IMG/VR virus record: IMGVR_UViG_3300028888_000044
Coordinates: 323,539-387,538 of that record
Length of the DNA stretch: 64,000 nucleotides
Direction: 5' to 3' (one strand)
DNA from: a virus
Taxonomy: Duplodnaviria; Heunggongvirae; Uroviricota; Caudoviricetes
The translations under genes were made by a program, and so were the position numbers. A model generated the notes under the pieces. The model had not been told where the DNA came from, did not search any database, and saw only the letters and a program-made list of their open reading frames with translations. Shown one piece after another: positions 16,246 through 58,152 of this stretch (positions within the stretch are counted from its first letter, which is position 1; every line of letters starts with the position of its first letter).

Positions 16246-16260
16246 ATTACTGTGTGGTTT

Positions 16261-18460: not shown

Positions 18461-18562
18461 CTAATCATAATGAGCAAAAGCACCAGCTTTCACAAGCTAA
18501 TGCTTTTTATTACCCCATAAAAAAAAAAGGAGATGATATTATGGAGGTATGAAAAAAAGTGT

Positions 18563-18651: not shown

Positions 18652-18653
18652 AA

Positions 18654-24512: not shown

Positions 24513-24585
24513 TTGTCCCTCCAAGACTCGAACTCGGACTTTCAGACTCAAATTCTGACGTGCTAACCGACTACACCAAGGGACA
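24513..24585 (-). tRNA. tRNA-Gln(UUG)
   Basis: revcomp tgtccct-tg-gtgt-agtcggtta-gcac-g-tcaga-atTTGag-tctga-aagt-ccgag-ttcgagt-cttgg-agggaca-a. Canonical cloverleaf with anticodon TTG, U33 and A37. Confidence 0.8.
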
Positions 24586-35743: not shown

Positions 35744-36589
35744 CTAACGCTTGCCTATAGCGCTTGACATATCGAGCATCATATTGGAACCGCTCATAAC
35801 GGTTGGCACTGTGCCGTTCCACTTCTCAATCCAATCCTCTTGTACGATGAGTGGGCTAAGTGAAGCTGCGATGGTGCGGTTGTAGTATGCTTCAGCGTCT
35901 GCCTTAATCTGCATTGCCTCTGCTGCGCCCTTTGCTTCTGCGATACGAATCTTTGCCTCTGCTTCAGCCTCCTTGACTTTGTTTTCTGCCTTGAGAGCTG
36001 ACTGTACGGCTGCGTTCTTTTCGTTAATCATCTGTGCGAGTGACTGAGGAGGTGTAATCTGTGAGGTAAATTCCTCCACGATGAATCCCTCGTCCATAAG
36101 TGATGATTCGAGGCGCTTGCGCACGTCACGCTCGAAGTTTGCGCGATTTGACATAAGTGAGTCTGACGTGTACTGATTTGCGCATGTGCGGTAAGCTTCG
36201 TAGATACAAGTGCGGATGTATCCGTTCTCAAGGTCTTCGATACCCTTGCGGTACTTGACAAAGATGTCGCAAGCCTTTTCTGGGTTGATGCGGTAAGCGA
36301 TTGTCGGGTCCATCGAGAATACTGAAGCGTCCTTTGCGTTGACGTTGAATGCCTCGTAGTTCTTACGCTGAATGAATGTTGGGTAGGTGAACACGCTTGT
36401 GGTGATTGGGTTATAGAATACCCATCCCTTGCAAGTACCTTCCACTCCACCGTAGTCTTGCTCATTAGCTGACCACTTATGGAACTTGATGCCGATTTCA
36501 CCCGAATCGATTACGGAGCAAGAAGCTACCAAGAAGCAGATGAGGATAAACGCAATCACTGACGAAACGATTAACTTAATGTTGTCCAT
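35744..36589 (-). CDS. SPFH/band-7 (HflK/C, stomatin-like) membrane protein
   Basis: N-terminal TM helix; C-terminal Ala/Glu-rich coiled segment AEAEAKIRIAEAKGAAEAMQIKADAEA typical of HflC/flotillin. Confidence 0.5.
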   Translation of the reverse strand: MDNIKLIVSSVIAFILICFLVASCSVIDSGEIGIKFHKWSANEQDYGGVEGTCKGWVFYNPITTSVFTYPTFIQRKNYEAFNVNAKDASVFSMDPTIAYRINPEKACDIFVKYRKGIEDLENGYIRTCIYEAYRTCANQYTSDSLMSNRANFERDVRKRLESSLMDEGFIVEEFTSQITPPQSLAQMINEKNAAVQSALKAENKVKEAEAEAKIRIAEAKGAAEAMQIKADAEAYYNRTIAASLSPLIVQEDWIEKWNGTVPTVMSGSNMMLDMSSAIGKR

Positions 36590-36625: not shown

Positions 36626-37078
36626 TTATTTTATTTCACCATTTTCAGTAATAGTATATTTGTTTGTGCCTATGTAAAAATGAGCAACACCATTAGTAAA
36701 ATTGCTACAATAATCAGCCCATTCCTTTATCAAGAGATTGCCGTTTTTGTCCATATAATTGTATTTCGAATGACCTTTTTTGTAAATTATTACACCAACG
36801 AAATGTTGGCTGCGCGTCACAAAAGTATCTTCAAACCAAATAGGAGAAACTAACTTTCCATCTTGATTGATAAAATTCAACTTGGTAAAAACATCAACTC
36901 TTGCCAACTCTTTCACTCCACCACTTCCAAAGGAATTAACCGATTCAAACCAATCTTTTGAAACGAGTTTTCCTTGTTCATTGATAAAATTCCATAATGG
37001 GCGTAAACCGAATTTATCAAGTTTTGAAACTCTTGCAAAACCATTTGTGAATTTGCCTACAATCTCATACTTTTTCAT
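36626..37078 (-). CDS. WG-repeat protein
   Basis: Repeats N.INQDGKLVS..WFE / YNYMDKNGNLLIKEW like the giant ORF. Confidence 0.5.
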   Translation of the reverse strand: MKKYEIVGKFTNGFARVSKLDKFGLRPLWNFINEQGKLVSKDWFESVNSFGSGGVKELARVDVFTKLNFINQDGKLVSPIWFEDTFVTRSQHFVGVIIYKKGHSKYNYMDKNGNLLIKEWADYCSNFTNGVAHFYIGTNKYTITENGEIK

Positions 37079-37733: not shown

Positions 37734-38036
37734 TTAGTTTAGAGAAACCACAGGGTCGAAATATGTTAAATTTTCTGGATATTCTTCTAAGAAAATCTCG
37801 CACTTTCGTCTTTTTAGTACTGCGATTTGCTGTTCGATTTGTTTAAGCTTATATTTCATAACTTCTGATTTCGGAACAAATTTATAAGTAGCTTCATTCT
37901 CTTTCAGATATTTATCGAAGAAATAAAAGTTATGACCGATTGTTAAATAGCCTTTTTCATCTACAGCGCCATAATGAACAACATTGCGACCATATTTGGC
38001 ACAATTAATTTTGACGTACTTGTACTTTCCTTCCAT
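37734..38036 (-). CDS. paralog family B protein
   Basis: MEGKYKYVKIN...VPKSEVMKYKLKQIEQQIAVLKRRK. Confidence 0.55.
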   Translation of the reverse strand: MEGKYKYVKINCAKYGRNVVHYGAVDEKGYLTIGHNFYFFDKYLKENEATYKFVPKSEVMKYKLKQIEQQIAVLKRRKCEIFLEEYPENLTYFDPVVSLN

Positions 38037-38054
38037 ATGTTTTAATGTTATTTC

Positions 38055-38339
38055 TTAAAAATGAATCAATTTAACAGCTGATTCTGAAGGCACATTATCT
38101 TTTCTTTTTCTAAGTTCGTTCATTTGTTCAAGAATATGTTTCTTTTTATGGTTTTCGACTACAATTCTTGGAACTTCCTCAAAGGTTGAATCAGCAAATA
38201 ATCGTTTAAAGAACTCAAAATCCAATTGCATATAGTTGCAATAATGAAATATATTTGTTTTTGTATTCAATACGCCAAAACCATAATGGTTGGTTAAGTT
38301 ATATGTAACTTTGTAGAACTTATAGTTGCCTTCTTCCAT
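38055..38339 (-). CDS. paralog family B protein
   Basis: MEEGNYKFYKV...FEEVPRIVVENHKKKHILEQMNELRKRK. Confidence 0.55.
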   Translation of the reverse strand: MEEGNYKFYKVTYNLTNHYGFGVLNTKTNIFHYCNYMQLDFEFFKRLFADSTFEEVPRIVVENHKKKHILEQMNELRKRKDNVPSESAVKLIHF

Positions 38340-38341
38340 GC

Positions 38342-38632
38342 TTAAACGTAATGATTGATACGTATTAATTCTGTTGGGTCTTCCGAATATATTTTTTCTT
38401 TTCTTTCTCTAAGCTTATTCATTTGTTCAAGCAATTTTTTCTGCTTATAAGCCATAACTTCGGTTTTTGTAACTTCCTCGAAAGTGTGATATGGACTATT
38501 TTGTTTATACCAATCAAAATTATAGTCAAAGTTGTTCACACACAAACAATTTGTTCTAGTGTTTAGTGCACAGTATTTGATTGCTTTTGTGCTTTTATGT
38601 GTCATTTTAATGTATTTATATTCGTCTGTCAT
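38342..38632 (-). CDS. paralog family B protein
   Basis: MTDEYKYIKM...FEEVTKTEVMAYKQKKLLEQMNKLRERK. Confidence 0.55.
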   Translation of the reverse strand: MTDEYKYIKMTHKSTKAIKYCALNTRTNCLCVNNFDYNFDWYKQNSPYHTFEEVTKTEVMAYKQKKLLEQMNKLRERKEKIYSEDPTELIRINHYV

Positions 38633-38949
38633 TTCTTCTTTTGATGAATTGGTAATACAAAATCACTTATTAAAACCAAGTCTTTTGGTTCTTCATAATC
38701 AGTTTGATTTATTCTTGACCTAAGAGTGTTGATTTGGTCAATGATATATCTTTTTTTATTGTTTAGTACAACAATTCTTGGAACTTCCTCAAACGTTAAA
38801 CTATCTCGACCGATTTTAGACTTGTATATACTAAAATTCAGTGTTGCACCATTTCTCAAGTATACTTGATTGTTTTCATCTACACAACAATAATGAACTC
38901 CTTGTGTCCATTTGTTAGTAACTTTATAGTATTTAAAATTTTCTGCCAT
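38629..38949 (-). CDS. paralog family B protein
   Basis: MAENFKYYKV...FEEVPRIVVLNNKKRYIIDQINTLRSR; minus -7 box near 38978. Confidence 0.55.
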   Translation of the reverse strand: MAENFKYYKVTNKWTQGVHYCCVDENNQVYLRNGATLNFSIYKSKIGRDSLTFEEVPRIVVLNNKKRYIIDQINTLRSRINQTDYEEPKDLVLISDFVLPIHQKKK

Positions 38950-39932: not shown

Positions 39933-41168
39933 TTAATAGAAATGAAGAACTTTCTTGAACATATCCACAACATCTTCATAACCAGTATGTTTTCCTTTAT
40001 CCTCACTAATCTTGCAAGTATCGGAGAAGAATGGGTAATTACTATTCTCTTTGATTGCAAGGAGCTTGATAACGATATTCATTGGTTTGATTTCATCTAC
40101 GATACCTTTCCAATCGTTTGTCCAAGCTGTTCCTATTCCATAACTGATTTTAGGATATTCTTTTCCAATGACTTTCTGGATATGGCAAGCATCATCAATT
40201 GACAATGCATTACTGAAGATGATTGTCTTTTCCTTTGGGTCGATGCCAAGAGAGCTGTATTTGTCACAAATCTTGTGGAACTGTTCGAAGTTGTCACCAC
40301 TATCAATTCGAAGTCCATCGAAACAGTTTGCAAAGTCTTTGTTGAAGTTTCGAGCAAAGGCATCGAAACCGTAGGTATCATACAAGTATGTTCCCAAAGC
40401 ACCCTTGAATGTATGCCTCCACTTTTCCATTGCAATCTTATTGGCAAGCAGTGGACCGTACAGACCAGCAATACCGCTAATCCATTCGTGTGCCATTGTT
40501 CCGATTGGTGTGGTGTTGTACTTCATTGCAAGGTAAACGTTAGATGTACCAACGCACTTGCCATTTGTTTGACAAAGTGGTGATATGAATGTTGGTCTAT
40601 TTTTGGTTGCATTAAGCATTGCTTTGAGAGCAGTTTCCTCCGTTTCGAAAGAAGAACGTCTTCGAGTGCCGAAATCAGCCCATACACATCCATTGTCAAT
40701 CATTTGTGCTGCCTTGACAAACGACTTTGTATAATACTTCTTGTAATCGAATTTTTTGTCAAGTTCAGTAATCTTGTAATAGAGTTCTGAAACGATTGCA
40801 AGAACCATTACTTCGAGCAACACAGTTTCTGCCCACAGACCTTCGAAAATGATATGCAGATGTCCATCTGTATCTTGTGAAACGTTAACAAGGTCGGAAT
40901 TGAATCGGAATCCACGAAGATAAGTGAAGAACCATTGTGGAAGGTACTTGCACTTTTCCTTCATAAAGTTGATTTCTTCTTCTGTGATTGTCAATGTTTC
41001 GAGAGTTTGTATTTCGGCTTTTAAGAATTGGTCAAAATGTTTTGGATAAACTGTTTTGTTCCTATCAACAAACTCGTACCTTACGATTGCATCTGGAAAG
41101 TTATCCACGATTGCGCAGCACATTGTAAGTTTGTACAAGTCTGTATCTGTAAAGTGTTTAATAATCAT
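39933..41168 (-). CDS. nicotinate/nicotinamide phosphoribosyltransferase-like (type II PRTase, PncB/NadV family)
   Basis: ADFGTRRRSSF and PIGTMAHEWISG motifs, characteristic of the NAPRTase family. Start set at MIIKHFTDTDLYK just downstream of the stop of the upstream gene. Confidence 0.6.
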   Translation of the reverse strand: MIIKHFTDTDLYKLTMCCAIVDNFPDAIVRYEFVDRNKTVYPKHFDQFLKAEIQTLETLTITEEEINFMKEKCKYLPQWFFTYLRGFRFNSDLVNVSQDTDGHLHIIFEGLWAETVLLEVMVLAIVSELYYKITELDKKFDYKKYYTKSFVKAAQMIDNGCVWADFGTRRRSSFETEETALKAMLNATKNRPTFISPLCQTNGKCVGTSNVYLAMKYNTTPIGTMAHEWISGIAGLYGPLLANKIAMEKWRHTFKGALGTYLYDTYGFDAFARNFNKDFANCFDGLRIDSGDNFEQFHKICDKYSSLGIDPKEKTIIFSNALSIDDACHIQKVIGKEYPKISYGIGTAWTNDWKGIVDEIKPMNIVIKLLAIKENSNYPFFSDTCKISEDKGKHTGYEDVVDMFKKVLHFY

Positions 41169-41172: not shown

Positions 41173-41616
41173 CTATTCTTCTGTTTCTTCGTTAGTTTCT
41201 GTTGGTGTAGTTTTCTTACTTTCGTATGGATTGGTAAGGAATTCGAATACTTCCTCCTTGTTGTCGGCAAAATCGAAAGCGTTGTTACTTGAAAGATGGG
41301 CTATGATGATGTCTTCAACTTCATCGTTACGGTCTTCTACAGTCCACTCACCGAACGACATATCATCATATACGATATAGCAATTACGGAGAGTAATGGC
41401 CATTCTATCGGTTGACTTGATTTCCTTGCCGTGCACACAAACGCATTCTACAGTTTCACCGTCTTCTGTAGTAATCTTGTCAACACTGACGCTGAATACA
41501 TTGAATGCATTTGCTCCGTGTGGGTATACGTGAGCGAATTTCTTGTTAAGAAGAGCTTCTACTACCTCTTTAATCTTTTCAACTGCCACTTGGGTCTTTG
41601 TAATTACTTCTGCCAT
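41173..41616 (-). CDS. hypothetical acidic protein
   Basis: ORF 147 aa; minus -7 box CAAAgaTA near 41655. Confidence 0.5.
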   Translation of the reverse strand: MAEVITKTQVAVEKIKEVVEALLNKKFAHVYPHGANAFNVFSVSVDKITTEDGETVECVCVHGKEIKSTDRMAITLRNCYIVYDDMSFGEWTVEDRNDEVEDIIIAHLSSNNAFDFADNKEEVFEFLTNPYESKKTTPTETNEETEE

Positions 41617-41702
41617 TTAATTGAATTTTTTAAGTTGTTTTAATTACAATGCAAAGATACACCTTTTTTCATTAAAAAGCAAGAAATAATTTATAAAATA
41701 TG

Positions 41703-41972
41703 TTAAAACCCACATATTGCGCATAGCATGCTTTCTATTGGGTTATCAAACTTCATCATATGGTCATTTCGTATTCTACCATCCTCTTGAATGTCATATC
41801 TAACGTTTTTATACATTATATAATAACCATTTACACCAGCTTGTGCAATTTGAGCTTGCACATAATATAATTGCAATTCGTTATGAATTATTCCTATGCA
41901 TTCATTTTCTGGTGAAAATACTTTCATAGTGAAATTCTGTATTTGTTTGGTTGGTAATACATTAATTGCCAT
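41703..41972 (-). CDS. hypothetical protein
   Basis: ORF 89 aa. Confidence 0.45.
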   Translation of the reverse strand: MAINVLPTKQIQNFTMKVFSPENECIGIIHNELQLYYVQAQIAQAGVNGYYIMYKNVRYDIQEDGRIRNDHMMKFDNPIESMLCAICGF

Positions 41973-41977
41973 AATTT

Positions 41978-42193
41978 CTAATGTTCACAAATAAAATAAA
42001 ACTTGTTGTTACAAAAGGGGCAAGTGAAGACTTCTTTCCATCTCATTGTTACGCCATACTTACCATCTTCAACTTTTTCTACGTCTTGTATTTCTACAGA
42101 CAAGTCATTATAGTTTTTCAAATAAGAATCTACATTTTCCCCACAATGCGGACATAATGGGGAATAATCTTTATCGTGTAATATTTCTTTCAT
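41978..42193 (-). CDS. zinc-ribbon protein
   Basis: CPHCGE...CPFCNN. Confidence 0.45.
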   Translation of the reverse strand: MKEILHDKDYSPLCPHCGENVDSYLKNYNDLSVEIQDVEKVEDGKYGVTMRWKEVFTCPFCNNKFYFICEH

Positions 42194-42812
42194 TTTCTAA
42201 AAAATATTTTATAGCAGCTTCAATTGCCTCTTCTTCTGTATTCCTTGGGAAATATTCTTCAGTTATTAGTTCATATGTTTTAAGGTCAATAATAGCTGTT
42301 CCATACTGATGATATTCTGAACTCATATCAGCATTGGTAAATGTATACGTAGATGGAAAAATCCCAACATTATGTACGATTTTAAGCCATTTTTTAGCCA
42401 TTTGAATAGTTGGGCATAAAAATACTTCCTTTGAATGTTCGTTCCATCCATTATATTTGCATACTGACATAATGTCATCATTATCTACAAATGAACGACC
42501 TACCGTAAAGCATTCGGCTGACAACTTATATATACCATTTGTATCTTGGCTATCATTAGCTTTATCAAGTATCCACACACATCTACATTTTGCATCAAAT
42601 CCAGACTTTTTAAGTAACTTAGCAATATCAAAAGATACAAAATCTTCTGTAACTATAAATTTTTCATTGCTGCGTAAATATTCAGAAACTGTAGGACCTA
42701 TTTTATTATATTTTTCCATTTCAAGTCTATCTTCGGCAAGTTGTTCTGGTGTAGCTGTGTCCAAATAGTGTAACATTTTCTGTACAATATTATCTAAATC
42801 TTTTTGTTCCAT
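42171..42812 (-). CDS. hypothetical protein with SF.xAKLLKKSGF motif
   Basis: Shares motif with 2450..2866. Confidence 0.5.
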   Translation of the reverse strand: MEQKDLDNIVQKMLHYLDTATPEQLAEDRLEMEKYNKIGPTVSEYLRSNEKFIVTEDFVSFDIAKLLKKSGFDAKCRCVWILDKANDSQDTNGIYKLSAECFTVGRSFVDNDDIMSVCKYNGWNEHSKEVFLCPTIQMAKKWLKIVHNVGIFPSTYTFTNADMSSEYHQYGTAIIDLKTYELITEEYFPRNTEEEAIEAAIKYFLENERNITR

Positions 42813-43039
42813 TACTTAATAATTTTTTTACGCATAACATCACCATTTGTGTCAGTAATGTATATGTATTTATTCTTTTCAGATGGAAGAGAATTGCTGA
42901 TAGACCATTCCGAATCGTTTTCGCTTACCAATAAGATGGAACCGTCAGACCATTCGCACCTATAATACTTTCCATCATATCCAACTATCACTACAGTGTA
43001 TTTACCGTCAGTGATTGCATCACCTACTTTAAATTTCAT
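42812..43039 (-). CDS. hypothetical protein
   Basis: ORF 75 aa, start/stop overlap with neighbours. Confidence 0.45.
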   Translation of the reverse strand: MKFKVGDAITDGKYTVVIVGYDGKYYRCEWSDGSILLVSENDSEWSISNSLPSEKNKYIYITDTNGDVMRKKIIK

Positions 43040-43353
43040 ATCTCATTATAACCTTTTATTACTTTAAGATTTGGGTTAAAGAACACATTTCCAATCACAT
43101 GATAAGCAAAATCACCAATCCAAGTGCCAAGTATGGATTCGACAAATTCAAACGAATTACGATAATCAGATGCCGTTGACCTAATTTTGTGATTGTTATC
43201 CAAGAATATCTCTTGTCTTACTGGTGCTCTGTATGTACACCATCCCTCACCATTATAATTAGATTCTAAAACGTCACCAACATAAATTGGTGTTCCAATG
43301 CAATCATAAATACCAGTAAATTGTCTGCAATCATATTTATATGGACGATACAT
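43036..43353 (-). CDS. hypothetical protein
   Basis: ORF 105 aa. Confidence 0.45.
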   Translation of the reverse strand: MYRPYKYDCRQFTGIYDCIGTPIYVGDVLESNYNGEGWCTYRAPVRQEIFLDNNHKIRSTASDYRNSFEFVESILGTWIGDFAYHVIGNVFFNPNLKVIKGYNEI

Positions 43354-43459
43354 AATTTTATTATTTTAAGTGTTCTATACTGTAGTTAGTATATACATTT
43401 TTATTTAAAAACAAAAAAAAACACTTTGGATTTTTTATTCCAAAGTATTTTTAATTTCA

Positions 43460-44509
43460 TCAATTGACCCAAACTTCTTCATCGTATCCACCATTTTCAA
43501 TTGCGTTTCTGTAGAATTCGATTTCGTCAATTGAAATTGGTTTGTAATTGTTTGCATCTACACCTACATTGTAGCCGAACTTCTTGCACTTCTGTGTTCC
43601 GTGAATATGTCCGAACAGAATGAATGAATCTTTAAGATTGAATTCGTTCTTGAACTGAAGTCCTATAGATGGCTCGTGGGTCAATATGTATGACTTGCCG
43701 TTGGATAATTTTTCAATTACAACCTTGAGGGAAAACTTACCATATCCAATATATGCCACTGATGGCTCTTGTGACTTCCCTTCACGTTCGTAGTTACCTT
43801 GCAAGAAATGCAAAGTGCCATTTAGATAGTGGCTATATTCTGTTTCACCGAAATCTCCCAAATGATAGATTTTGTCACAAGGATGAACTGTGTTGTTCCA
43901 ATTCTCAATCAAGGAGAAATCCATATCCTTGACATCAAGGAATGGTCGCTTTGAGAGTTGTAGAATCCTTTCAGAACCGAAATGGGTGTCGCTTGTGAAA
44001 TACACCTTTGGTGATTTTTCACATTCATCGATATACTCAACGAGAGAAGCGATACAGTCTTCGAGAGAGCTGTGCACAGTACCCATATGGTACTGTTCCA
44101 ATTTCTTTTGGAAATAGTCTCTGCCGCCAAATTCGTCATAACATCCGAAAATGATTTTCTTGCCTCTTGCGATATACTCACCGAATTCAGTCCGTGTTGT
44201 TTGCGCGTAATCGTGGTGGTGCTTTTGAAGCTCTTCGGTATTGGATGGTTTTGGAATCCAAAAGAGGATTACGTCAGCAAATCTCATATTAACTTCCTCC
44301 CAATCAACTTGTTCGTCATAGTTGAAATTCTTGTAGCTTTCACGTCTTGGCGAGAACCAAATTACATTATCGAGATTTGGCATGTTGTGTTGCCATTTTT
44401 CTGCTCCGAAAATTGGACCAGCTAGAAATACGTGCCACTTTGTCTTTGGTAAAATACCACCTAATTCATTCTTTAACTCATTGAATTTTGTTGGACAGCA
44501 AATAGTCAT
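43460..44509 (-). CDS. two-domain protein: N-terminal nucleoside 2-deoxyribosyltransferase-like fold plus C-terminal calcineurin-like metallophosphoesterase
   Basis: N-terminal VFLAGPIFG..W resembles the YLAGPF motif of NDT-fold enzymes. C-terminal HLGDFG, LQGNYE and ILFGHIHG match phosphoesterase metal-ligand motifs. Confidence 0.45.
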   Translation of the reverse strand: MTICCPTKFNELKNELGGILPKTKWHVFLAGPIFGAEKWQHNMPNLDNVIWFSPRRESYKNFNYDEQVDWEEVNMRFADVILFWIPKPSNTEELQKHHHDYAQTTRTEFGEYIARGKKIIFGCYDEFGGRDYFQKKLEQYHMGTVHSSLEDCIASLVEYIDECEKSPKVYFTSDTHFGSERILQLSKRPFLDVKDMDFSLIENWNNTVHPCDKIYHLGDFGETEYSHYLNGTLHFLQGNYEREGKSQEPSVAYIGYGKFSLKVVIEKLSNGKSYILTHEPSIGLQFKNEFNLKDSFILFGHIHGTQKCKKFGYNVGVDANNYKPISIDEIEFYRNAIENGGYDEEVWVN

Positions 44510-46431: not shown

Positions 46432-46782
46432 TTAAATATAGTCAAAAGTAGTCACACTACCTTTTATACATTCACTCCTTGCAGTTTCTTGCAAGTTCCT
46501 TCGAAACGATAACAATACTTCTTTTACCTTCTCACGTTTAAACTTCTTAGGTTCAAAAGCACCATTATCCAATTGTTTTAAGAGCGATTCTCGTAACACG
46601 GTTACAAGCACTCTGTTCCTTATATTCTTTGCAGCATTAAAATCTGCATTATCCTTATATCCACATTCAATACATTCAAATTTATCTTTGTTTATTTTTT
46701 GCATATTCACTATATTTATTTGAAATTTTGCTCCAAAATTCATATCCCTCTTCTGTACACGAGAAAAAAAATGCGTTTTCAA
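46432..46782 (-). pseudogene. IS200/IS605 TnpB (OrfB) C-terminal remnant
   Basis: ECIECGYKDNADFNAAKNIRNRV matches the TnpB C-terminal CxxCG...D.NAA.NI signature. Only the second CxxC pair is present, and the ORF overlaps a family A gene by 100 nt. Confidence 0.45.
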
Positions 46783-46939
46783 TCAAATCTATTCTGTCTA
46801 AATGTACTATAACATACATCGCCCAATTAACCCAGTTGTGAAATCTAATGTGGTGGCTCTTAAAGAAAGCGTTGAAATATTTCTCATAAACTCCGTTATC
46901 TTTCAAGAATCGTAAAAAGTCAATTAGTGTTTTATTCAT
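46682..46939 (-). CDS. paralog family A protein
   Basis: FLRFLKDNGVYEKY ... TEEGYEFW. Confidence 0.55.
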   Translation of the reverse strand: MNKTLIDFLRFLKDNGVYEKYFNAFFKSHHIRFHNWVNWAMYVIVHLDRIDLIENAFFFSCTEEGYEFWSKISNKYSEYAKNKQR

Positions 46940-47198
46940 TGTATACTTGTTTTAAATCAACTAAAATTTTATGCCAAAAATCATATCCCTCATTTGAAGA
47001 AGCAAATGTAAATGCTCCTCCAAGAATATAATTTTTAGGCGTTGTAAAATTAGACAATCTACGCTCAACCCATTTCAACCAATATTTTGTTTTGTCTTGA
47101 TTATCTATCCTTCTATAGGAAAAAAAATTTTCAAAATAAGCATTATACGCTGAATGGTCTTTTAATACCCTTAAAAACAGCTTTATTGTTTCATTCAT
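46932..47198 (-). CDS. paralog family A protein
   Basis: FLRVLKDHSAYNAY ... SNEGYDFW. Confidence 0.55.
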   Translation of the reverse strand: MNETIKLFLRVLKDHSAYNAYFENFFSYRRIDNQDKTKYWLKWVERRLSNFTTPKNYILGGAFTFASSNEGYDFWHKILVDLKQVYNE

Positions 47199-47467
47199 AA
47201 TTTAAGTTTATCAAGTTCGCGTACAATATCCCACCAAAATTCTGAGCCTTCATCGGAAGATACAAAATTGAATGCACCACTGACAAGCATAGAAATTTTT
47301 CTACCAAATACTTCACCACTTAAGCACATATTAGCCCAATATTTCCAATATGTATATGGGTCAACATCATCTATTGAATGTCTTAAAAAGAAATTGTCGA
47401 AATATTTCTCATAAGCCCCTTTATTTTTCAATATTCTGAAAAAGAGCTGTATATTTTTTTCGTTCAT
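47195..47467 (-). CDS. paralog family A protein
   Basis: FFRILKNKGAYEKY ... SDEGSEFW. Confidence 0.55.
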   Translation of the reverse strand: MNEKNIQLFFRILKNKGAYEKYFDNFFLRHSIDDVDPYTYWKYWANMCLSGEVFGRKISMLVSGAFNFVSSDEGSEFWWDIVRELDKLKL

Positions 47468-48445: not shown

Positions 48446-51400
48446 ATGGAGATAACTAATAGTATTGTCAAGAATTGTTTAACTGAATATGTACAAGATA
48501 GGTTTCAATTATTGACTGAAGACCAAAAAAGAACAATTCGCAACAAAATAACAAGGGTTGTTTCATCAAGAGTACCTCATAGTGTTGATGATACCCAAAT
48601 GATTGAGAAATTGGTTGATGATATATGGAATACATATGTTCTTCACCCACTTCACGATGGGGTTCATCATAGGCAAAATGATGAAATCACTATAATCAAT
48701 CAGAACATTGAAAGATTGATTCCATATGTTATAAAGCAAAAAAGTGATAATGAATCTGAAAATGTTACTTACTATATTACAACAAATCCAAGAATTCGCA
48801 ACAGTTGGGAGAACTTGATACAAGCACAAAGGCAGAATAGAAATGTAACTTTGTGGAGAGATGATGGTGGTGATTTGACTTATTGGGATGTAAACAAACG
48901 TTATAATGATGCGATAAATTCTGCTAAAAACACGAAAATTGAAGGCAAGTACCATTACTCTGTTTACAAGGTAGAAAACTACGATACACCAATTGAAGGG
49001 TTGGGAATGACAGTTAGAGAACTTGGACAGTATACTGGTGGAAAAGGCTCGCTAAGCTGTGTACCGTTGTGCTATACACAATCTCTAAATACGTATAACA
49101 ATTACACAAAAGGCAATGAATACAATATGTATGCTCTACTGCGTGACGGTTGGCAGAATGAACCATGCAAAATGACAGAAGGTTATCCATTGGATAGCTA
49201 TGGTCTTTCTATGATATTCGTCATAATAAGTCCTACTGGAAATATAGTAAACAACAATGTAAGATGGAATCACGGCCCAAATGGGTATCCAAGAAGTGTT
49301 GACAACATATTCACTTATAAGGAATTGACAGAAATTGTTGGTAGCGATGTAATGGAACAACTTAACACTACTATTGATGTTGACCAATCGTTACGTTTGA
49401 CATATGAGGTTGAAACTAAACTTAAAGAAGGTCAAGATATTAACGACATATTTACTTCTAAAGGTAAAGAATGCTGTGGTTATATACCAGTTTGTTATAT
49501 GCGTAAATGGAATATTATTGATTCTTCAAAGTCATTGTTATGTGACGAATGGTTCGATGGTATTGGCGCTTTTCATCCAAATGGTTTTTGTTATGTTTGT
49601 AAGAACCACTTATATAACTTTATTGATGTTAATGGAGAATTTGTTTGGGATAGACCGTTTGAAGAATGGTTTGATTCCATTGATTCGTGGTCATTTGATG
49701 ATAATGGTTTGTGTAAGGTTATGAATCACTATAAGTATAATTGGTTAAAGACTGATGGTACACTATTATTTAATAACCAACAACAAGAATGGCTAAATAA
49801 TGCTGGTGATTTTCATAATCAAATTGCTTATATAAAATTACATGGTAAATACAATTATATTAGAACTGATGGCTCATTTGTTTGGGATTATGATGACACA
49901 CAATATTGGTTTGATGATGTTGCTGATAAAGGTTTTAATAACTCCAATGTTGCTGTGGTAACAATTGACAGATTGGTTAATTTATTGAAAACAGATGGTA
50001 CACTAGTTTGGAATAAATCACCCGAATTATGGTTTAATGCCATTGTTAATAATAGTGTTAACGATGGGATATTCCAAGTAAAACGTAGCAATAAATATAA
50101 TTTCCTAAGAATGGATGGTACATTGGTTTGGCAGAAACCTTTTAATGAATGGTTTACATCAATTGGAGCATTCTATAATGGTTTGGCAAAAGTAACTACA
50201 TCATTTGGTGAAACATATAATTTTATTAAAATTGATGGAACATTGCTGTTTGACGAAACAGATGATACAAAACATTTTGATAAAACTGGTAATTTCGCTA
50301 GTGGACCAGCATTTGTTTGCATAAATAATAAATATAATTTCATTAGAGAAGACGGAACTTATATTTGGGATAAACCAATAGGACAATGGTTTGATAGTGT
50401 TAGCGAATATTTTAGAGAAGGTTTTGCTTGTGTGCGCAAGAAAGGAGTTGCAAATTTTATATCTACAGAAGGAAAGTTGTTATGGAAGAAACCATTAAAA
50501 GATTGGTTCAGTGGTGTAGACCCTTTTTATCAAGGGATAGCACAAGTACGAAAGAATGGCAAAAGTAATTACATACGAACAAACGGGAAATTAGTTTTGA
50601 ATAAACCATTTGATGAGTGGTTTTTATGGATGGGTGAGGTTATAAATAGCCCTAATATATTTATTGTAAGAGATGCAATGAGATATAACTATATTAAAGA
50701 TGGCGAATTGTTATATAACCAACCTCGTACAAAATGGTTTACTGATATAAGCAGAATACTTGATAAAATCAATGATAATATATCTGGCTTCCTTGTACAA
50801 AAGGGATATAAGTACAATTTCTTGAAACTTGATGGAACACTTCTCAATAGCAGTTTCGTAAGTAAAAGTGAATTAGAATCTATAATTCGAAGAATAAAAC
50901 ATCAATCGTCCAATATACAAGAATCCTTAAGGGAATATGTAACTAAAAATTTACAACTTCTTACTGAAGACCAGAAGAAGACAATTCGTAACAAGATTGC
51001 AAGAGGTATTGTTTCAATGACTAATCTTGATGTAAACAGTACTGAAGTACAATCGTTAGTAGATAATGTTTGGAATACATATGTTGTGCATCCAGTTGAA
51101 GGAGAGAAGCGACAGAATGACGAGATTACTGTTATTAATCAGAACATTGAAAGATTAGTTCCGTATGTCTTGAAGCAAAATGATTCTGAAAATTACTTTA
51201 TAAGCAACAATCCAAGGATTCGTAAAAGTTGGGAAAACTTGATACAAACCCAAAGGCAGAACAGACAAACCAAGCTATGGCAAGACAATGATAATTTGCT
51301 TTATTGGAATACCAATAAAAAGTATAATGATGCAATAAATGCCGCAACAAGTGAAGAAATTAAAGGCAAGTATCATTATAGTGTGTATAAGATAGAAGAT

Positions 51401-54400
51401 TACCATACGCCAATTGAAGGCTTGGGAATGACTGTTACAGAACTTGGCAAGTATACTGGTGGGCAAGGCGCAGTGCCTTTGTGTTATACACAAGGTGAAT
51501 CAACATATAACAGTTATACTGAAAACAATCAATTTAATATGTATGCTGTGTTGCGTGATGGATGGCAGAATGAACCTTGTGAGATTGAAGAAGATTATCC
51601 ATTGGATAGCTATGGTTTATCAATGATATTTGTCATTATTGATGAAAATGGAAAGATTGAATACAGTAATGTAAGATGGAATCACGGTCCAAGAAATTAC
51701 GCAAGAAGTGTTGACCACATATTCTCGTACAATGAATTGAGGGATATTGTTGGAAGTAATGTAATTAAGCAAGTTGGTGCACATGTAGAAATAGACACAT
51801 CGTTACAATTGACATATGAGGTAGAGAAAAAGTTAAAACAAGACTTATCTATTTACCAAATATTTGGTGATGTTGGCTTTTTTAAGGACGGTTTGGCAAA
51901 GGTTTACTATTCTGGTTTATTCAATTACATAGATTCATCTGGAGACTTACTAACTGATGAATGGTTTGATTCTTGTGCTCCATTTCAAAATGGGCTTGCT
52001 GCGGTACGAAAAGGACAAAAGGTAAATTATATAAAGACAGACGGTACTTATTTATACAACACAGATAATACTGATGATTGGCTTACTATGGCTTGTGATT
52101 TTGATGAAAATGGTTCTGCTATCGTTGGAAAGAATAATAAATACAATTTTATTCTAAAAGATGGCACATTCATTTGGAAAGGTGAATGGTTTGATTTGGT
52201 TGGTGATTTTATTAATGATATTGCTCTAGTTAAAAAAGATAACAAAGCTAATTTTTTAAGATTTGATGGTACATTAGTTTGGAATTATGAAAATACAAAT
52301 GATTGGTTTGATGATGCTACTAATTTTAGTGCGGATTATAATATCGCAGTGGTACGAAAAGGAGGTAAAGGTAATTATTTGAAGACTGATGGTACATTGG
52401 TTTGGAATTATCTTGACACAAAGAAATGGTTTGATACTGTTTGCCATTTTTATGATGGTTTAGCTCAAGTTAAAATCAACTATAAGTATGAAGAAAAATG
52501 GAACTACCTCAAACTAGATGGAACTTTTTTATGGAAGAAGCCATTAAAACAGTGGTTTGATAATGCTTATAGGTTTGATGAAGGTGTTGGTATAATAGAA
52601 TATAAAGGTAAAAACAATTGGTTAACAACCAAAGGTGAAATATTTTGCCCAGATATGTGGTTTGATTGGGTTGGAACATTTCACAAAGGGATTACTAAAG
52701 TAGAAATAAACGGTAAATTTAACTTTTTAAATAGTAATGCTAAGTTATTGTGGGGGTCTTACGATGACACAACAGATTGGTTTGATTACGTTGAGAGGAT
52801 TGAGCAAGGATATGCTAAAGTAAGAAATCAAGGACGTTGGAACATATTACGACCAGATGGTAAATTATTGTGGGATTATCCAAATCCTCAAGATTGGTTT
52901 AATAATATGGGTACACTTGATAAAGAAGAAATAATATATGTTTCAAAAGATGGTAAAAGTAATTATTTAAATCTTCAAGGTAAACTTCTAAGCCAAAATT
53001 GGTTTGATAGTTGTTTTGTATTTGAGAATGGCGTTGGTAAAGTTCAAAAAGACCAACGCATGAATCTAATCAGAAAAGATGGCACATTTGTATGGAACAG
53101 ACCATTGAAAGATTGGTTTATTTTCATTGGTGAAGTAGACTCATTTGGTAATTCAGAGGTATACACGCATTATCAAGGTGCAACAGTTGGTAACTTATTG
53201 AAAATAGAAGATGGTACGTTACTGTGGAAGAAAAGTCCAAAATTATGGTTTCGTTACATTGACGTTAATAAGATATTACCAAATGGTGTAAAAGGTTATA
53301 GAGTCTCCAAGACAACAAAGACTATGATGAAGTATAACTTCTTAAAGTTAGATGGTACTCTTCTTTTCAAAACATTTTTATCTAGTCACAGCTATAATTT
53401 GGCAATGCATACTTTAAGGGATAATGATAATCAAATAATACAAGAATCTTTACGAGAATATGTTAAAGATAAGTCGTTGTTGGCTGAAGCAGATTCACGA
53501 ATTAAGGGAACTAGAAACGCAATTAAAAGGGGTATTGCTGCAATAACCAAACTTGACATTAATGACCCTATTGTAGAAAACTTGACCAATGATGTTTGGA
53601 ATACTTATGTTGTTCATCCTATCGCAAATGAAAATCGTCAGCTTGACGAATATATTGCCATTAGGAATAATGCTGACAGACTTCTTATGTACGCGGTAAA
53701 ACAGAACCAAGATGGCACATATTACATAACAAAAAATCCACGTTTGAAAAATGGCTTTGAGAATCTTATTCAAGCACAAAGGAAAGACAATACAAAACCA
53801 ATACTTGATAATAATGCAAATTTGTTCCAATGGTATAACACACAGAAATACAATCAAGCATTGGAAAACTTACAAGCCAATAGTAAAAAAATACTGAAAG
53901 GTCAATATAGTTACAAAGCATATCCAATCACTGATTTTTATGATAACATTAAAGGCTTGGGAATGACTGTTAAAGACCTTGGGGAGTGGACTGGTAGTGA
54001 AGAAGCTGTCGAATTGTGCTATACTCAATTTGAAAATACGTATAACCAATATACACACGGCAACAAATACAATATGTATGCTTTATTGCGCCAAGGTTGG
54101 CAAGACGAGCCTTGTGAGAAAGGAGAAGGCTATCCTTATGACAGCTACGGTCTTTCTATGATATTCGTAATTATCGATGATAATGGTGATATAGCTACAA
54201 GTAATGTTAGATGGAATCACGGTGACAATTCTTATTCTAATGTAGATAATATGTTCAACTATGCTAAATTAGTACAAATTGTTGGTTCTAATATACTTAA
54301 TAAAATACATTGTACATATAATGATGACATAACTCGTAATATGTCACTTATAGTAAGACTTGAAAAAGCTTTAAGCAATATCGATGCAACTGATGTTGAT

Positions 54401-55956: not shown

Positions 55957-57477
55957 TTAAAAATCGTTAATAGTGCTTTCCATCATTTCTATATCCACCT
56001 CACCTTTATCTATACGCTTGCTTTCCAACAAGAAGAAAGCCTCTGTTTTAAGCTTAAATGCTTCTTTTAATTCATCGCCAACGATTCTCAATACAAAGCC
56101 TTCACGAGGTACTTTATTATGACAAAGAGGTTCATTCTTTTCCATGAAGAATCTTTTTTCCTTACCAAGAAGTTCAAGTACATTTTCATGCCAATGATTT
56201 TCGGTATCGACTTCTGGGTAAAAATCAGCCAACTTGCCACGGAAAAGCACGTCAAGTACGAAAAGTCTGTCAGCAATTTCTGGGCGTTCATTCATTAGAT
56301 TCTTAGTCCAATTTATTACTTCATCAACTTCCCATTCTTTTTTAGAGCCATCTTCGTTAGTTGTCGTTATTCTATATGGCATAAATTTATTATGACCAAC
56401 TTCACATCCATAATCGTAATTTCCAGTAGCAAACATTTTTTGCAAACCAGTTTCGTAGCCAAAAATTTCACCATAAACTGTCATACCTTCTTGTATAGCC
56501 CCTTTCAATATCTCGTTATATTCTGCCCATACGTCTGTTTTATAATAACATTCTGTGCTATTTTCGTTGATATATTGGTTTCTAATTTGGTGTCTAGATG
56601 AATATATGGTATCATATACATATTCTATCTTTTGTAATTTGATAGGCAATGAATGGCAAACCTTATTCACTATATTGGTTAGCCAACCAAATGGTGTACT
56701 ATATTGCTTTGGTCTTTTTGTTAGAACATTTGCAAATATTGCAGAAGTGCCATGTATTTTAGTAGTGATAATTACTTCAGTATCTGGTTTAATCAAATTA
56801 AAATTCTTCTTAAGTGGCTGTGTATCATAATGAAAGAAGAATTGGCCTGGAATCATTCGGTCATATCGTTTGATTTTCTTTTGGCTCCACGTATATTCTC
56901 GTACAATTCTTTTTTTCTGTGGTATATATGGAACATATGCTTTGATAAACAATTCACCATTGACTGTATCAAAGTCGTAACCTATATAATCCTTCAAATT
57001 GATATTAACTATTTCTGGACAAAACTTTGCCATTGTTTCAATACTAAACAAGAAACCGCTAGAATCAACACCTCTAAGTCTAATCATTTTTACTCTTCGG
57101 TGTTTGGTAAAAAAACCAGTGTTTTCTTTAATCAACGATTCCAATCTTGAAACTTCTTCCAAATCTTGATTTGTTTTTGCCAATTGAAGCTGTGTAAGGA
57201 TTTTACCTACTTGAACCGCATTTGCGTTCTTGTCGAATTCGCTTTGTTCAAACAGATTATTTACTGACAAGAATCGTTCATTTAGTTGTGTTTCGTTTTC
57301 AGCATAGAACATCAAATCACCTTGCTTTACCAAATCTCGTCTGACTACAATTGTTTGTCCGTTTACTTTTGTTGATGCAAGAAAATCAGAATTTGGTATA
57401 GGTTCAATCTCACCAACCTCAATGATTGACGCACAGTATTCGTGGTTTATATGTTCTGATTGTTCTAGTATTTTCAT
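55957..57477 (-). CDS. ATP-dependent RNA ligase, Rnl2-like
   Basis: Nucleotidyltransferase motif I TKIHGTS (KxHG, as in T4 Rnl2 KIHGTN) and downstream GEIFGY motif III-like. Confidence 0.55.
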   Translation of the reverse strand: MKILEQSEHINHEYCASIIEVGEIEPIPNSDFLASTKVNGQTIVVRRDLVKQGDLMFYAENETQLNERFLSVNNLFEQSEFDKNANAVQVGKILTQLQLAKTNQDLEEVSRLESLIKENTGFFTKHRRVKMIRLRGVDSSGFLFSIETMAKFCPEIVNINLKDYIGYDFDTVNGELFIKAYVPYIPQKKRIVREYTWSQKKIKRYDRMIPGQFFFHYDTQPLKKNFNLIKPDTEVIITTKIHGTSAIFANVLTKRPKQYSTPFGWLTNIVNKVCHSLPIKLQKIEYVYDTIYSSRHQIRNQYINENSTECYYKTDVWAEYNEILKGAIQEGMTVYGEIFGYETGLQKMFATGNYDYGCEVGHNKFMPYRITTTNEDGSKKEWEVDEVINWTKNLMNERPEIADRLFVLDVLFRGKLADFYPEVDTENHWHENVLELLGKEKRFFMEKNEPLCHNKVPREGFVLRIVGDELKEAFKLKTEAFFLLESKRIDKGEVDIEMMESTINDF

Positions 57478-57483: not shown

Positions 57484-58152
57484 CTATTCTAATTTTTGGC
57501 ATTCTTCTTCAGAGTACAAAGAATGCAGTTTATTAATCCACCAAGCAGTTTTGACTTTAACTGATGGTCGTTGTTGGCCTTTCATTAATGTTGAACGTTT
57601 GAAAACAACACCTTCCTTGATATTAAGTGGGTTGTCAATATCGGTTATTTTTTGTATTTGTGAAATTATGTCGTAATCTAAAGACCCAACATATACAAGT
57701 TGAGCCACTTCAATTCCACAATCAGAAAACAATTTCCAAAAAATATTGGGTTCTATATATCCTTTCTTTTTCAAGAAAACATCAATTAGAGCCAAATGCA
57801 TATCATCACCTTCGACATGTTTACCAGCAAAAGATTGCTCACCATACCATTCAAAAAAGAATGTTATTTCGTCAATGCCGTTAAACACACCTTTTTTCTT
57901 TGAATTTTCAGCAATAATATTTTCAAGTATTTCTCCGTATTTAGATGCTTTGAAAAATTTTACTGCATCTCCAAGCTGTTCGCTGTTTTCATCTACTGTA
58001 ACTGTTCTTGAGCCATAATTAGCCCATTGCTTCTTTTTACAATTATAGGCCGCACAAAAATTTTGTCCGTCCAACTTATTAAAACCCCAAACAGTTTCAC
58101 CTTTCAGTGTCCCATCGTCTTGTATTCTAGGTATACTGTTATAATGTTTCAT
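57484..58152 (-). CDS. ATP-dependent polynucleotide ligase (KxDG nucleotidyltransferase)
   Basis: Motif I KLDGQN, motif III FFFEWYG, motif IV EGVVFK and motif V KVKT in canonical order. Confidence 0.55.
   Translation of the reverse strand: MKHYNSIPRIQDDGTLKGETVWGFNKLDGQNFCAAYNCKKKQWANYGSRTVTVDENSEQLGDAVKFFKASKYGEILENIIAENSKKKGVFNGIDEITFFFEWYGEQSFAGKHVEGDDMHLALIDVFLKKKGYIEPNIFWKLFSDCGIEVAQLVYVGSLDYDIISQIQKITDIDNPLNIKEGVVFKRSTLMKGQQRPSVKVKTAWWINKLHSLYSEEECQKLE

What the first reader, a model, noticed from the sequence alone, without database searches (positions are those of the whole stretch)
39933..41168. Phage-encoded nicotinate/nicotinamide phosphoribosyltransferase homolog (NAD salvage; possible anti-defence)
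The protein carries DFGTRRR and GTMAHEW motifs of the NAPRTase/NAMPT type-II PRTase family. Phage NAD+ salvage enzymes are known to reconstitute NAD+ after depletion by abortive-infection systems such as Thoeris, DSR and SEFIR. Members of this family can also use ADPR-pyrophosphate in the NARP1 route.

I did not recognise a partner NMN adenylyltransferase or PRPP-synthetase-like gene nearby, so the pathway context is unclear.
Basis: partly seen in the sequence, partly recalled or inferred. Interest (0 to 1): 0.55.

Follow-up and report, generated by a model that had tools for sequence, protein, structure and literature searches.

The report
Phage-borne nicotinate phosphoribosyltransferase (PncB)
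A large gut or rumen phage that probably infects Prevotella-like bacteria carries an intact, host-derived copy of PncB, the enzyme for the first step of making NAD+ from nicotinic acid; genes like this are already described in gut jumbo phages, so it is a solid but ordinary find.

Summary
Window 39933..41168 (- strand) encodes a 411-aa protein with both NAPRTase domains. It passes the curated PncB equivalog model (TIGR01514, 359 bits against a cutoff of 269.6). It keeps DFGTRRR (residues 165-171), GTMAHEW with the phospho-histidine (His227), GTSN, RxDSGD and GIGT.

It is a nicotinate enzyme (PncB). It is not a NAMPT/NadV and not the NARP1 enzyme Namat.

The window is phage DNA: IMG/VR contig IMGVR_UViG_3300028805_000076, 120 kb, with relatives of 232-412 kb. 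The gene is 55-60% identical to Prevotella/Bacteroidaceae PncB. Its GC content has drifted to the phage value (38% against 53-56% in bacteria). It is under strong purifying selection (dN/dS 0.04-0.08).

No PncA, NadD, NadE, Prs-like, Nmnat or NUDIX gene lies in the 64 kb. Other phage pncB genes do sit next to such genes:
- PncA-like
- NadE
- NUDIX
- Macro domain
- ADP-ribosylglycohydrolase
- Tad2-like

Most likely function: it keeps or raises Preiss-Handler NAD+ salvage during infection, using host NadD and NadE. A counter-defence role is plausible but untested. Phage pncB-nadD-nadE clusters in Bacteroidota jumbo phages were published in 2024, so this is a new member of a known kind.

The parts
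39933..41168 (-). pncB gene: 411-aa nicotinate phosphoribosyltransferase (stop codon included).
   Evidence: ORF. TIGR01514 scores 359.3 bits against a cutoff of 269.55. PDB 2im5 matches at 4e-70 and 1vlp at 1e-65. dN/dS is 0.04-0.08.
40788..41147 (-). N-terminal NAPRTase_N domain (residues 8-127).
   Evidence: Pfam PF17767, E = 4.5e-35, profile positions 2-125 of 125.
40041..40679 (-). Catalytic NAPRTase barrel domain (residues 164-376).
   Evidence: Pfam PF04095, E = 2.4e-44.
40656..40676 (-). DFGTRRR motif (residues 165-171).
   Evidence: It aligns with EFGTRRR or DFGTRRR in four of the five PDB PncB chains shown; 2im5 has IFGMRRR and 4hl7 EMGTRRR. D165, F166, G167, R169, R170 and R171 are invariant in at least 99% of 122 aligned sequences.
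40482..40502 (-). GTMAHEW motif (residues 223-229). His227 is at window 40488-40490.
   Evidence: It aligns with yeast GTVAHEW, Pseudomonas GTMAHEW and Yersinia GTQAHEW. That this histidine is the ATP-dependent phosphorylation site (His219 in Salmonella PncB) is established knowledge, not something tested here.
41173..43353 (-). Six small same-strand genes upstream of pncB (105, 75, 213, 71, 89 and 147 aa). They are probably co-transcribed with it, and none has an NAD-related domain.
   Evidence: ORFs. The gap between the 147-aa gene and pncB is 4 bp. Pfam/PHROG give only weak YopX and zinc-ribbon hits and phrog_12005. The 147-aa protein is an ORFan. Co-transcription is inferred, not shown.
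43417..43452 (-). Terminator-like hairpin with a T-run. It probably closes the upstream unit, so the pncB-containing unit would begin after it.
   Evidence: 14-pair stem. This is a consensus match only and function is inferred.

Best explanation
The gene encodes a working PncB-type nicotinate phosphoribosyltransferase. This enzyme converts nicotinate + PRPP to nicotinate mononucleotide + PPi. The reaction is driven by ATP through a phospho-histidine, here His227.

An ancestor of this group of large T4-like phages of Bacteroidales captured the gene from a Prevotella/Bacteroidaceae-type host, and the phages have kept it since.

During infection the phage copy supplies the first committed step of the Preiss-Handler salvage route. 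NadD and NadE then carry NaMN on to NAD+, and PncA converts nicotinamide to nicotinate. Those enzymes would come from the host or from parts of the phage genome outside this window. The effect is to hold up or rebuild the NAD+ pool that phage replication needs. The benefit is greatest when NAD+ is being cleaved to nicotinamide.

Status of each step:
- Shown: family membership, intact motifs, phage location, host-like origin, purifying selection.
- Inferred: enzyme activity, reliance on host NadD/NadE, and the physiological benefit.
For: Family membership:
- Both NAPRTase domains are present.
- TIGR01514 PncB equivalog scores 359 bits against a cutoff of 269.55, over the full length.
- All six PDB hits are PncB-type NAPRTases. 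Alignments to five of them were printed, and in those DTDxYK, GTSN, the AHEW histidine, RxDSGD and GIGT line up.
- 117 residues that are at least 99% invariant across 122 aligned sequences (120 close homologues, the query itself and 2im5) are kept.

Phage residence:
- 99% match to IMGVR_UViG_3300028805_000076.
- The same gene has phage flanks on both sides in independent assemblies L001-L009.
- Gene GC is 38% and phage GC 34%. Bacterial homologues are 53-56% with GC3 of 73-77%.

Selection: dN/dS is 0.082 against L001 and 0.044 against L004.

Origin: 55-60% identity to many Prevotella/Bacteroidaceae PncB proteins, but only 39% to P. gingivalis PncB.

Pathway logic from relatives:
- A PncA-like gene sits 6 bp upstream of the 70%-identical pncB in L007.
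- NadE and NUDIX flank pncB in L010.
- A glutamine-dependent NadE lies 3.5 kb from pncB in L101.
- A pncB-nadD-nadE cluster has been reported in a gut NAD-jumbo phage (Kuafu_71), and that study's Kuafu clade has predicted Bacteroidota hosts (PMC11662467).
Against: - No NadD, NadE, PncA or PRPP-synthetase gene was found in the 64-kb window. The phage contribution seen here is therefore one step only.
- The rest of the genome could not be read. At least 54 kb more of the contig exists, and relatives are 232-412 kb.
- The hosts apparently have their own pncB, so the gain from a second copy is assumed, not shown.
- Activity and substrate were not measured.
- The closest large relative by tail-tube protein (a 412-kb contig) did not appear among the pncB-bearing viral contigs. 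The gene is therefore dispensable for this phage group.
Confidence: 0.75

Rival explanations
1. Dedicated counter-defence. The phage PncB exists mainly to rebuild NAD+ after NADase defence systems (TIR/Thoeris, SIR2/DSR, SEFIR and the like) cleave it to nicotinamide + ADPR. It would form a Preiss-Handler-based reconstitution route alongside NARP1, NARP2 and NARP3. This is a sharper version of the best explanation, not a contradiction of it.
For: Independent phage pncB lineages sit beside genes typical of NAD/ADPR conflicts:
- A Macro-domain gene 12-46 bp downstream (L097, L103).
- An ADP-ribosylglycohydrolase 11 bp downstream (L099/L100).
- A Tad2-like Thoeris anti-defence domain 450 bp upstream (L101/L102).
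- A PncA-like gene that would feed nicotinamide into the route (L007).
- NUDIX genes (L010; Atu_ph07).

The gene is accessory. It lies at different genome positions in close relatives (L004 against the window), as anti-defence genes often do. Three other phage NAD+ rebuilding routes have been shown experimentally.
Against: - From nicotinamide the route needs four enzymes, PRPP and several ATP. It is much slower than the two-step NARP1.
- Only one of the four enzymes is in the window.
- None of the window's own pncB neighbours is NAD-related.
- Neither the NARP1/2 nor the NARP3 paper mentions PncB.
- No experimental test of this route turned up in the literature I searched.
Confidence: 0.3
2. 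The enzyme does not use nicotinate. It acts like NAMPT/NadV (nicotinamide + PRPP) or like Namat (nicotinamide + ADPR-PP, the NARP1 route).
For: Pfam PF04095 covers the whole superfamily. Substrate choice was not measured. The window clade carries a short 4-residue insert at 356-359 and a variable loop at about 190-203.
Against: - The PncB-specific equivalog is passed over the full length.
- The N-terminal domain is the PncB type (NAPRTase_N).
- No NAMPT or Namat chain is hit in the PDB at E <= 1e-3.
- Every annotated match among the 13 phage records hit by tblastn is called nicotinate phosphoribosyltransferase.
- Namat is a Nampt homologue that needs an adjacent Adps, and no PRPS-like gene is in the window.
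Confidence: 0.03
3. Not a real phage function: a host fragment joined in by mis-assembly, or a decaying passenger gene.
For: The closest named homologues are bacterial. The PHROGs library has no matching family.
Against: - The same gene lies between phage genes in several independent assemblies and samples.
- Its composition matches the phage, not the bacteria.
- dN/dS is 0.04-0.08 and all motifs are intact.
- It is packed 4 bp from the upstream phage gene.
Confidence: 0.02
4. NaMN is made for a purpose other than the NAD+ pool, for example as a phosphoribosyl donor or as a precursor for nucleotide or RNA modification.
For: The window is rich in RNA-repair genes: two RNA ligases and a kinase-like protein. 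There is no NadD or NadE nearby.
Against: No gene that uses NaMN in another way was found in the window. In relatives the linked genes are NAD+ pathway genes (PncA, NadE).
Confidence: 0.04

Closest known systems
Bacterial PncB (nicotinate phosphoribosyltransferase, EC 6.3.4.21; TIGR01514), in particular Prevotella/Bacteroidaceae PncB and the solved P. gingivalis enzyme 2im5
   Same: Same two-domain architecture, length, motifs and phospho-histidine. Identity is 55-60% to Prevotella-type proteins and 39% to 2im5.
   Different: It is encoded by a phage and its composition has shifted to the phage's low GC. It has a 4-residue insert at 356-359 shared with its phage clade. It scores just under the cutoff of the PRK05321 subfamily model (375.4 against 379).
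Preiss-Handler gene sets of gut 'NAD-jumbo phages' (example Kuafu_71; that study's Kuafu clade has predicted Bacteroidota hosts), PMC11662467
   Same: A phage-borne pncB in large gut phages of Bacteroidota, read as phage-driven NAD+ synthesis. Relatives of this window's phage lie on 232-412 kb contigs.
   Different: The published example clusters pncB with nadD and nadE. Here pncB stands alone within 64 kb, and whether the rest of the genome completes the route is unknown. Whether this phage belongs to the Kuafu clade was not tested.
Annotated pncB in isolated or deposited phages (Agrobacterium phage Atu_ph07, Sinorhizobium phage Phosso, Acinetobacter phage MD-2021a)
   Same: The gene is annotated as nicotinate phosphoribosyltransferase in phage genomes. 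Atu_ph07 has an ADP-ribose pyrophosphatase 3 kb away.
   Different: Identity is only 28-35%. These are different hosts (Proteobacteria) and separate acquisitions.
NARP2 (phage Nampt + Nmnat), NARP1 (Adps + Namat) and NARP3 (PnuC + NadR)
   Same: The same outcome is proposed: phage enzymes rebuild NAD+. Nampt and Namat share the type-II PRTase fold and a catalytic phospho-histidine with PncB.
   Different: This is a different branch of the superfamily with a different substrate (nicotinate, not nicotinamide). It needs deamidation by PncA and amidation by NadE. No partner genes are present here, and the route has not been tested experimentally.

Membership tests
PncB-type NAPRTase (TIGR01514 / EC 6.3.4.21) | Full-length match to the curated equivalog model above its cutoff. 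| tested here: met
   359.3 bits against a cutoff of 269.55; residues 2-404 align to profile positions 1-391 of 399.
PncB-type NAPRTase (TIGR01514 / EC 6.3.4.21) | Two-domain architecture: NAPRTase_N followed by the NAPRTase barrel. | tested here: met
   PF17767 at 4.5e-35 and PF04095 at 2.4e-44.
PncB-type NAPRTase (TIGR01514 / EC 6.3.4.21) | The histidine that is phosphorylated by ATP (His219 in Salmonella), in the GT-x-AHEW motif. | tested here: met
   His227 in GTMAHEW aligns with the same motif in yeast, Pseudomonas, Vibrio and Yersinia PncB. The residue's role is established knowledge and its phosphorylation was not tested here.
PncB-type NAPRTase (TIGR01514 / EC 6.3.4.21) | Conserved substrate-binding motifs (DTDxYK, (D/E)FGTRRR, GTSN, RxDSGD, GIGT). 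| tested here: met
   All are present. DTDxYK, GTSN, RxDSGD and GIGT align in all five printed PDB alignments, and the FGTRRR motif in four of them with variants in 2im5 and 4hl7. They are at least 99% invariant in 122 aligned sequences.
PncB-type NAPRTase (TIGR01514 / EC 6.3.4.21) | Catalyses nicotinate + PRPP to NaMN and prefers nicotinate over nicotinamide. | not testable with these tools
   Needs an enzyme assay or genetic complementation.
NAMPT/NadV (NARP2) and Namat (NARP1) | Sequence membership in the Nampt/Namat branch. | tested here: not met
   No Nampt or Namat chain is hit in the PDB at E <= 1e-3. All NCBIfam hits are NAPRTase models. Every annotated match in the phage tblastn is called nicotinate phosphoribosyltransferase.
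NAMPT/NadV (NARP2) and Namat (NARP1) | A partner gene nearby: Adps (PRPS-like) for NARP1, or Nmnat for NARP2. | tested here: not met
   No Pribosyltran/PRPS or cytidylyltransferase-like domain was found in any called ORF of the window.
NARP3 (PnuC + NadR) | A PnuC transporter and a NadR-like kinase/adenylyltransferase. | tested here: not met
   Neither was found in the window.
Phage Preiss-Handler cluster of NAD-jumbo phages (pncB-nadD-nadE) | pncB encoded by a large phage of Bacteroidota. | tested here: met
   Phage context. Relatives lie on 232-412 kb viral contigs. The nearest bacterial homologues are Prevotella/Bacteroidaceae. The host is inferred, not shown.
Phage Preiss-Handler cluster of NAD-jumbo phages (pncB-nadD-nadE) | nadD and nadE in the same phage genome (a complete pathway). 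| tested here: inconclusive
   Both are absent from the 64-kb window. At least 54 kb more of the contig, and probably much more of the genome, could not be read. NadE is present next to pncB in L010 and L101.

The most novel reading that the evidence does not exclude
Phage PncB could be the core of a fourth NAD+ reconstitution strategy, based on the Preiss-Handler route: nicotinamide to nicotinate via PncA, then NaMN via PncB, then NaAD, then NAD+ via NadE. Large phages of Bacteroidota and other hosts would use it against NADase immunity. It would be modular. Different phages carry one to several steps and pair them with ADPR-processing or signal-sponging genes (Macro, ADP-ribosylglycohydrolase, NUDIX, Tad2-like). 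In this phage the single phage-supplied step would be the flux-limiting one.
Probability: 0.3. Interest if true: 0.55.

Novelty: new member of a known kind. Interest (0 to 1): 0.3.

Why it matters
NAD+ is a central battleground between bacteria and phages. Three phage routes that rebuild it have been shown experimentally, and none of them uses nicotinate.

This gene adds a clean example of the nicotinate route in a phage of Bacteroidales, a dominant gut and rumen group whose phage-defence biology is little studied. It is conserved, host-derived and under selection.

The comparative result may be more useful than the gene itself. Separate phage pncB lineages repeatedly sit next to ADP-ribose-handling genes and a Thoeris anti-defence-like gene. 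That gives a concrete and cheap experiment: test pncB, with or without pncA, against NADase systems.

On its own the finding is an expected auxiliary metabolic gene and does not change current understanding.

Tried and rejected
- **Megablast against phages.** 20 kb around the gene gave no match among 50,697 phage records, so no annotated close relative was available.
- **PHROGs.** No family matched the protein.
- **Stop-codon recoding.** I tested whether recoding explained the ORF-poor stretch at 12-30 kb. Making TAG, TGA or TAA a sense codon did not produce a coherent set of longer genes, so I rejected the idea.
- **Reading the rest of the contig.** An exact-pattern fetch returned only about 760 new bases. 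I stopped there, because the 120-kb contig is itself probably only a fragment.
- **The 147-aa gene 4 bp upstream of pncB.** Its only homologue in 5.8 billion proteins comes from the same phage. The single-sequence AlphaFold model had a pLDDT of 42.7 and was unusable, so I ran no fold search.
- **An apparent 11-residue insertion at 192-202.** It looked clade-specific but turned out to be a misaligned variable loop.
- **Promoter scan.** Hits were at chance level (31 found, 30.4 expected), and the sigma-70 consensus does not suit Bacteroidota.
- **Phage phosphatases that counter aRES.** These are Macro-domain enzymes and are unrelated to the metallophosphoesterases near pncB.
- **Literature on a nucleoside 2-deoxyribosyltransferase-like role in NAD conflicts.** I found nothing.

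Full report
**1. The observation**

The - strand carries an ORF that ends at 39933 and is open up to a TTG at 41270. The ATG at 41168 gives a 411-aa protein beginning MIIKHFTDTDLYK. This start matches position 1-2 of the PncB profiles and the length of the closest homologues. It lies 4 bp after the stop of the upstream gene. The longer TTG-initiated form would overlap that gene.

DFGTRRR is residues 165-171 and GTMAHEW is residues 223-229. The coordinates and motifs are therefore confirmed.

**2. What the protein is**

- Pfam finds NAPRTase_N (E = 4.5e-35) followed by the NAPRTase catalytic domain (E = 2.4e-44).
- NCBIfam places it in TIGR01514, the equivalog model for PncB-type nicotinate phosphoribosyltransferase. 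It scores 359 bits against a cutoff of 269.55 over the full length. The models for the other NAPRTase subfamily score far below their cutoffs.
- Against all PDB sequences, the only hits at E <= 1e-3 are six PncB-type NAPRTases. The best are P. gingivalis 2im5 (4e-70) and yeast 1vlp (1e-65). No NAMPT or Namat chain is hit.
- In the five alignments that were printed, DTDxYK, GTSN, the AHEW histidine, RxDSGD and GIGT line up. The FGTRRR motif aligns in four of them, and 2im5 and 4hl7 carry variants.
- His227 sits at the position of the histidine that ATP phosphorylates in Salmonella PncB. That role is established knowledge and was not tested here.
- In a 122-sequence alignment (120 close homologues, the query and 2im5) the protein keeps 117 positions that are at least 99% invariant.

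This is the nicotinate branch of the superfamily. It is not NAMPT/NadV and not Namat, which is a Nampt homologue (36% identical, PMC12774641).

**3. Where it sits**

The window is phage DNA. It holds:
- a T4-type prohead protease domain
- two RNA ligases
- a polynucleotide-kinase-like P-loop protein
- an HNH endonuclease
- a Kyanoviridae Gp96-like protein
- many small ORFs of unknown function
- one tRNA confirmed by Rfam

GC content is 28-42%.

The pncB protein is 99% identical to one encoded on IMG/VR contig IMGVR_UViG_3300028805_000076 (120,399 bp). The last 42 bases of the window match that contig exactly. The window corresponds to roughly contig positions 2.6-66.6 kb. Phages with tail-tube proteins 64-85% identical lie on viral contigs of 232-412 kb, so this is probably part of a jumbo phage.

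**4. Origin and evolution**

The closest proteins in 5.8 billion fall in this order:
- P0001, 97% identical (same phage, syntenic)
- P0002, 84%
- P0003, 70%
- P0004 and P0006, 64%
- hundreds of Prevotella, Bacteroidaceae and Paludibacteraceae PncB proteins at 55-59%

P0001-P0004 and P0006 lie in phage-like contexts. P0009 and P0010 lie among bacterial glycoside hydrolases.

A neighbour-joining tree without bootstrap, together with the identity matrix, groups the window with P0001-P0003. P0004 is 81-86% identical to a group that includes the bacterial-context P0010. A second phage group (P0006, L097, P0017) and a third (L099, L101, L103; about 40% identical to the window) are distinct. Agrobacterium phage Atu_ph07 is at 29%. 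Phages have therefore picked up pncB several times.

The window gene has 38% GC (GC3 39%), close to the phage's 34%. Bacterial homologues have 53-56% GC with GC3 of 73-77%. dN/dS is 0.082 against the 97% copy and 0.044 against the 84% copy, where dS is saturated. The gene is therefore an old, selected resident and not an assembly artefact.

**5. Pathway context in the window**

Pfam scans of every called ORF of at least 60 aa found none of the following:
- PncA/isochorismatase
- NadD/NadR/Nmnat
- NadE
- PRPP-synthetase-like protein
- NUDIX
- Macro domain
- PnuC

tblastn with PncA-like, NadE and NUDIX proteins from related phages also found nothing in the window.

pncB is the last gene of a run of - strand genes (43353 down to 39933). 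This run begins after a terminator-like hairpin at 43417-43452. Its six upstream neighbours are small proteins without informative domains. The immediately adjacent 147-aa protein is an ORFan, and its predicted structure was unusable.

**6. Pathway context elsewhere**

| Locus | pncB identity to window | Neighbours of pncB |
|---|---|---|
| L007 | 70% | 188-aa isochorismatase-family gene 6 bp upstream; its only NCBIfam hit is nicotinamidase/pyrazinamidase (7e-22, below cutoff) |
| L010 | 64% | NH3-dependent NadE (TIGR00552, 137 bits against a cutoff of 63.65), an SPFH protein and a NUDIX hydrolase |
| L097, L103 | 57%, 40% | Macro-domain gene 12-46 bp downstream |
| L099, L100 (351 and 217 kb contigs) | 41% | ADP-ribosylglycohydrolase 11 bp downstream |
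| L101, L102 (277 and 237 kb contigs) | 40% | Tad2-like domain (1.9e-20) 450 bp upstream; glutamine-dependent NadE 3.5 kb downstream |
| Atu_ph07 | 29% | Annotated ADP-ribose pyrophosphatase 3 kb away |

So pncB in phages recurs with other NAD+ synthesis steps and with genes that process ADP-ribose or bind Thoeris signals. This is association, not proof.

**7. Mechanism**

The most likely picture is as follows. The phage makes PncB, which turns nicotinate and PRPP into NaMN. Host NadD and NadE, or phage copies outside the window, complete NAD+. PncA feeds in nicotinamide released by NAD+-cleaving enzymes. This keeps NAD+ available for the long replication cycle of a large phage.

I rate the enzyme identity at about 0.9 and the NAD+ supply role at about 0.75. 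A specific counter-defence role is plausible (about 0.3), given the neighbourhoods above and the three known NAD+ reconstitution pathways. However, the route is long and ATP-costly, and only one step is seen here. The NARP1/2 and NARP3 papers do not mention PncB, and no experimental test of the Preiss-Handler route turned up in the literature I searched.

**8. Comparison with what is known, and novelty**

Phage pncB is rare. Only 13 of 50,697 deposited phage records have a homologue, and PHROGs has no family for it. It is not new, though:
- It is annotated in Atu_ph07, Phosso and Acinetobacter phage MD-2021a.
- A 2024 metagenomic study defined 'NAD-jumbo phages'. One of them, Kuafu_71, clusters pncB, nadD and nadE, and the study's Kuafu clade has predicted Bacteroidota hosts (PMC11662467).

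This gene is therefore a new member of a known kind. The still-open part is whether the Preiss-Handler route counters NADase immunity. That question can be tested directly with this gene.

**9. Verdict**

- Interest is 0.3.

Noticed in passing
L097:5415-5864, L103:1347-1796, L099:11205-12014, L101:9270-9551 and 14721-16727, L007:9428-9994, L010:1648-2571 and 5644-6150: Other phage pncB genes sit beside a Macro-domain gene, an ADP-ribosylglycohydrolase, a Tad2-like Thoeris anti-defence domain, NadE (both the NH3-dependent and the glutamine-dependent type), a PncA-like gene and a NUDIX hydrolase. This NAD/ADP-ribose neighbourhood recurs across separate pncB lineages.
   Followed up: partly
window 43460-44509 (-); also L099:5114-5680: A 349-aa fusion of a nucleoside 2-deoxyribosyltransferase-like domain (PF15891, 1.4e-10) with a metallophosphoesterase (phrog_547, 1e-35; PDB 1xm7, 6e-7) lies 2.3 kb upstream of pncB and is followed by a terminator-like hairpin. 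A stand-alone PF15891 gene also lies 4.3 kb upstream of pncB in L099/L100. Its function is unknown and I found no literature link to NAD.
   Followed up: partly
window 46432-46743 (-); L102:11672-13315: A 103-aa ORF is the C-terminal remnant of a TnpB/Cas12f-like protein (PF07282, 1.5e-6). A full-length 547-aa copy with a nearly identical C-terminus sits directly after pncB in L102 but not in its sister contig L101. This suggests an IS605-type element that moves among these jumbo phages.
   Followed up: partly
window 14841-15404 (-): A 187-aa membrane protein of the formate/nitrite transporter family (PF01226, 7e-16) is encoded in the phage. This is an unusual auxiliary gene.
   Followed up: no
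window 35744-36589 (-); L010:2777-3583: An SPFH/Band_7 protein lies 3.3 kb downstream of pncB in the window. Its 37%-identical homologue lies directly upstream of pncB in L010. A Band_7 gene is also 3 kb from pncB in the bacterial contigs L013/L014.
   Followed up: no
window 48446-55591 (+): A 2381-aa protein with many WG-containing beta repeats (PF14903, 1.7e-29) has no PHROG match. A smaller WG-repeat protein lies at 36626-37078.
   Followed up: no
window 18561-18745 (-) and 24513-24585 (-): ARAGORN calls two adjacent 91-92-nt tRNA-like genes, one with a four-base anticodon. Rfam confirms only the tRNA-Gln at 24513-24585 at its gathering score. The stretch from about 12 to 30 kb has a higher GC content (35-42%) and sparser ORFs. 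Stop-codon recoding does not explain this.
   Followed up: partly
window 37734-38949 (-), 9970-11333 (-), 46932-47467 (-): Tandem arrays of small paralogous genes of about 90-115 aa each. One is a run of four directly beyond the + strand gene that converges on pncB. Their function is unknown.
   Followed up: no
window 55957-57477 and 57484-58152 (-): Two RNA-ligase-family genes lie in tandem and in the same frame, separated by a TAG. Reading TAG as sense would give one 740-aa ORF. Each half matches the ligase profile on its own, so two paralogues is the simpler reading.
   Followed up: partly
L099:9992-11197, L101:9986-11218, L103:120-1343: The pncB lineage on the 217-351 kb jumbo contigs has variant motifs: DM(G/S)TRRR in place of DFGTRRR, and GT(M/L)SHQ in place of GTMAHEW. 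The histidine is kept but Glu is replaced by Gln. This may mean altered catalysis or substrate.
   Followed up: no
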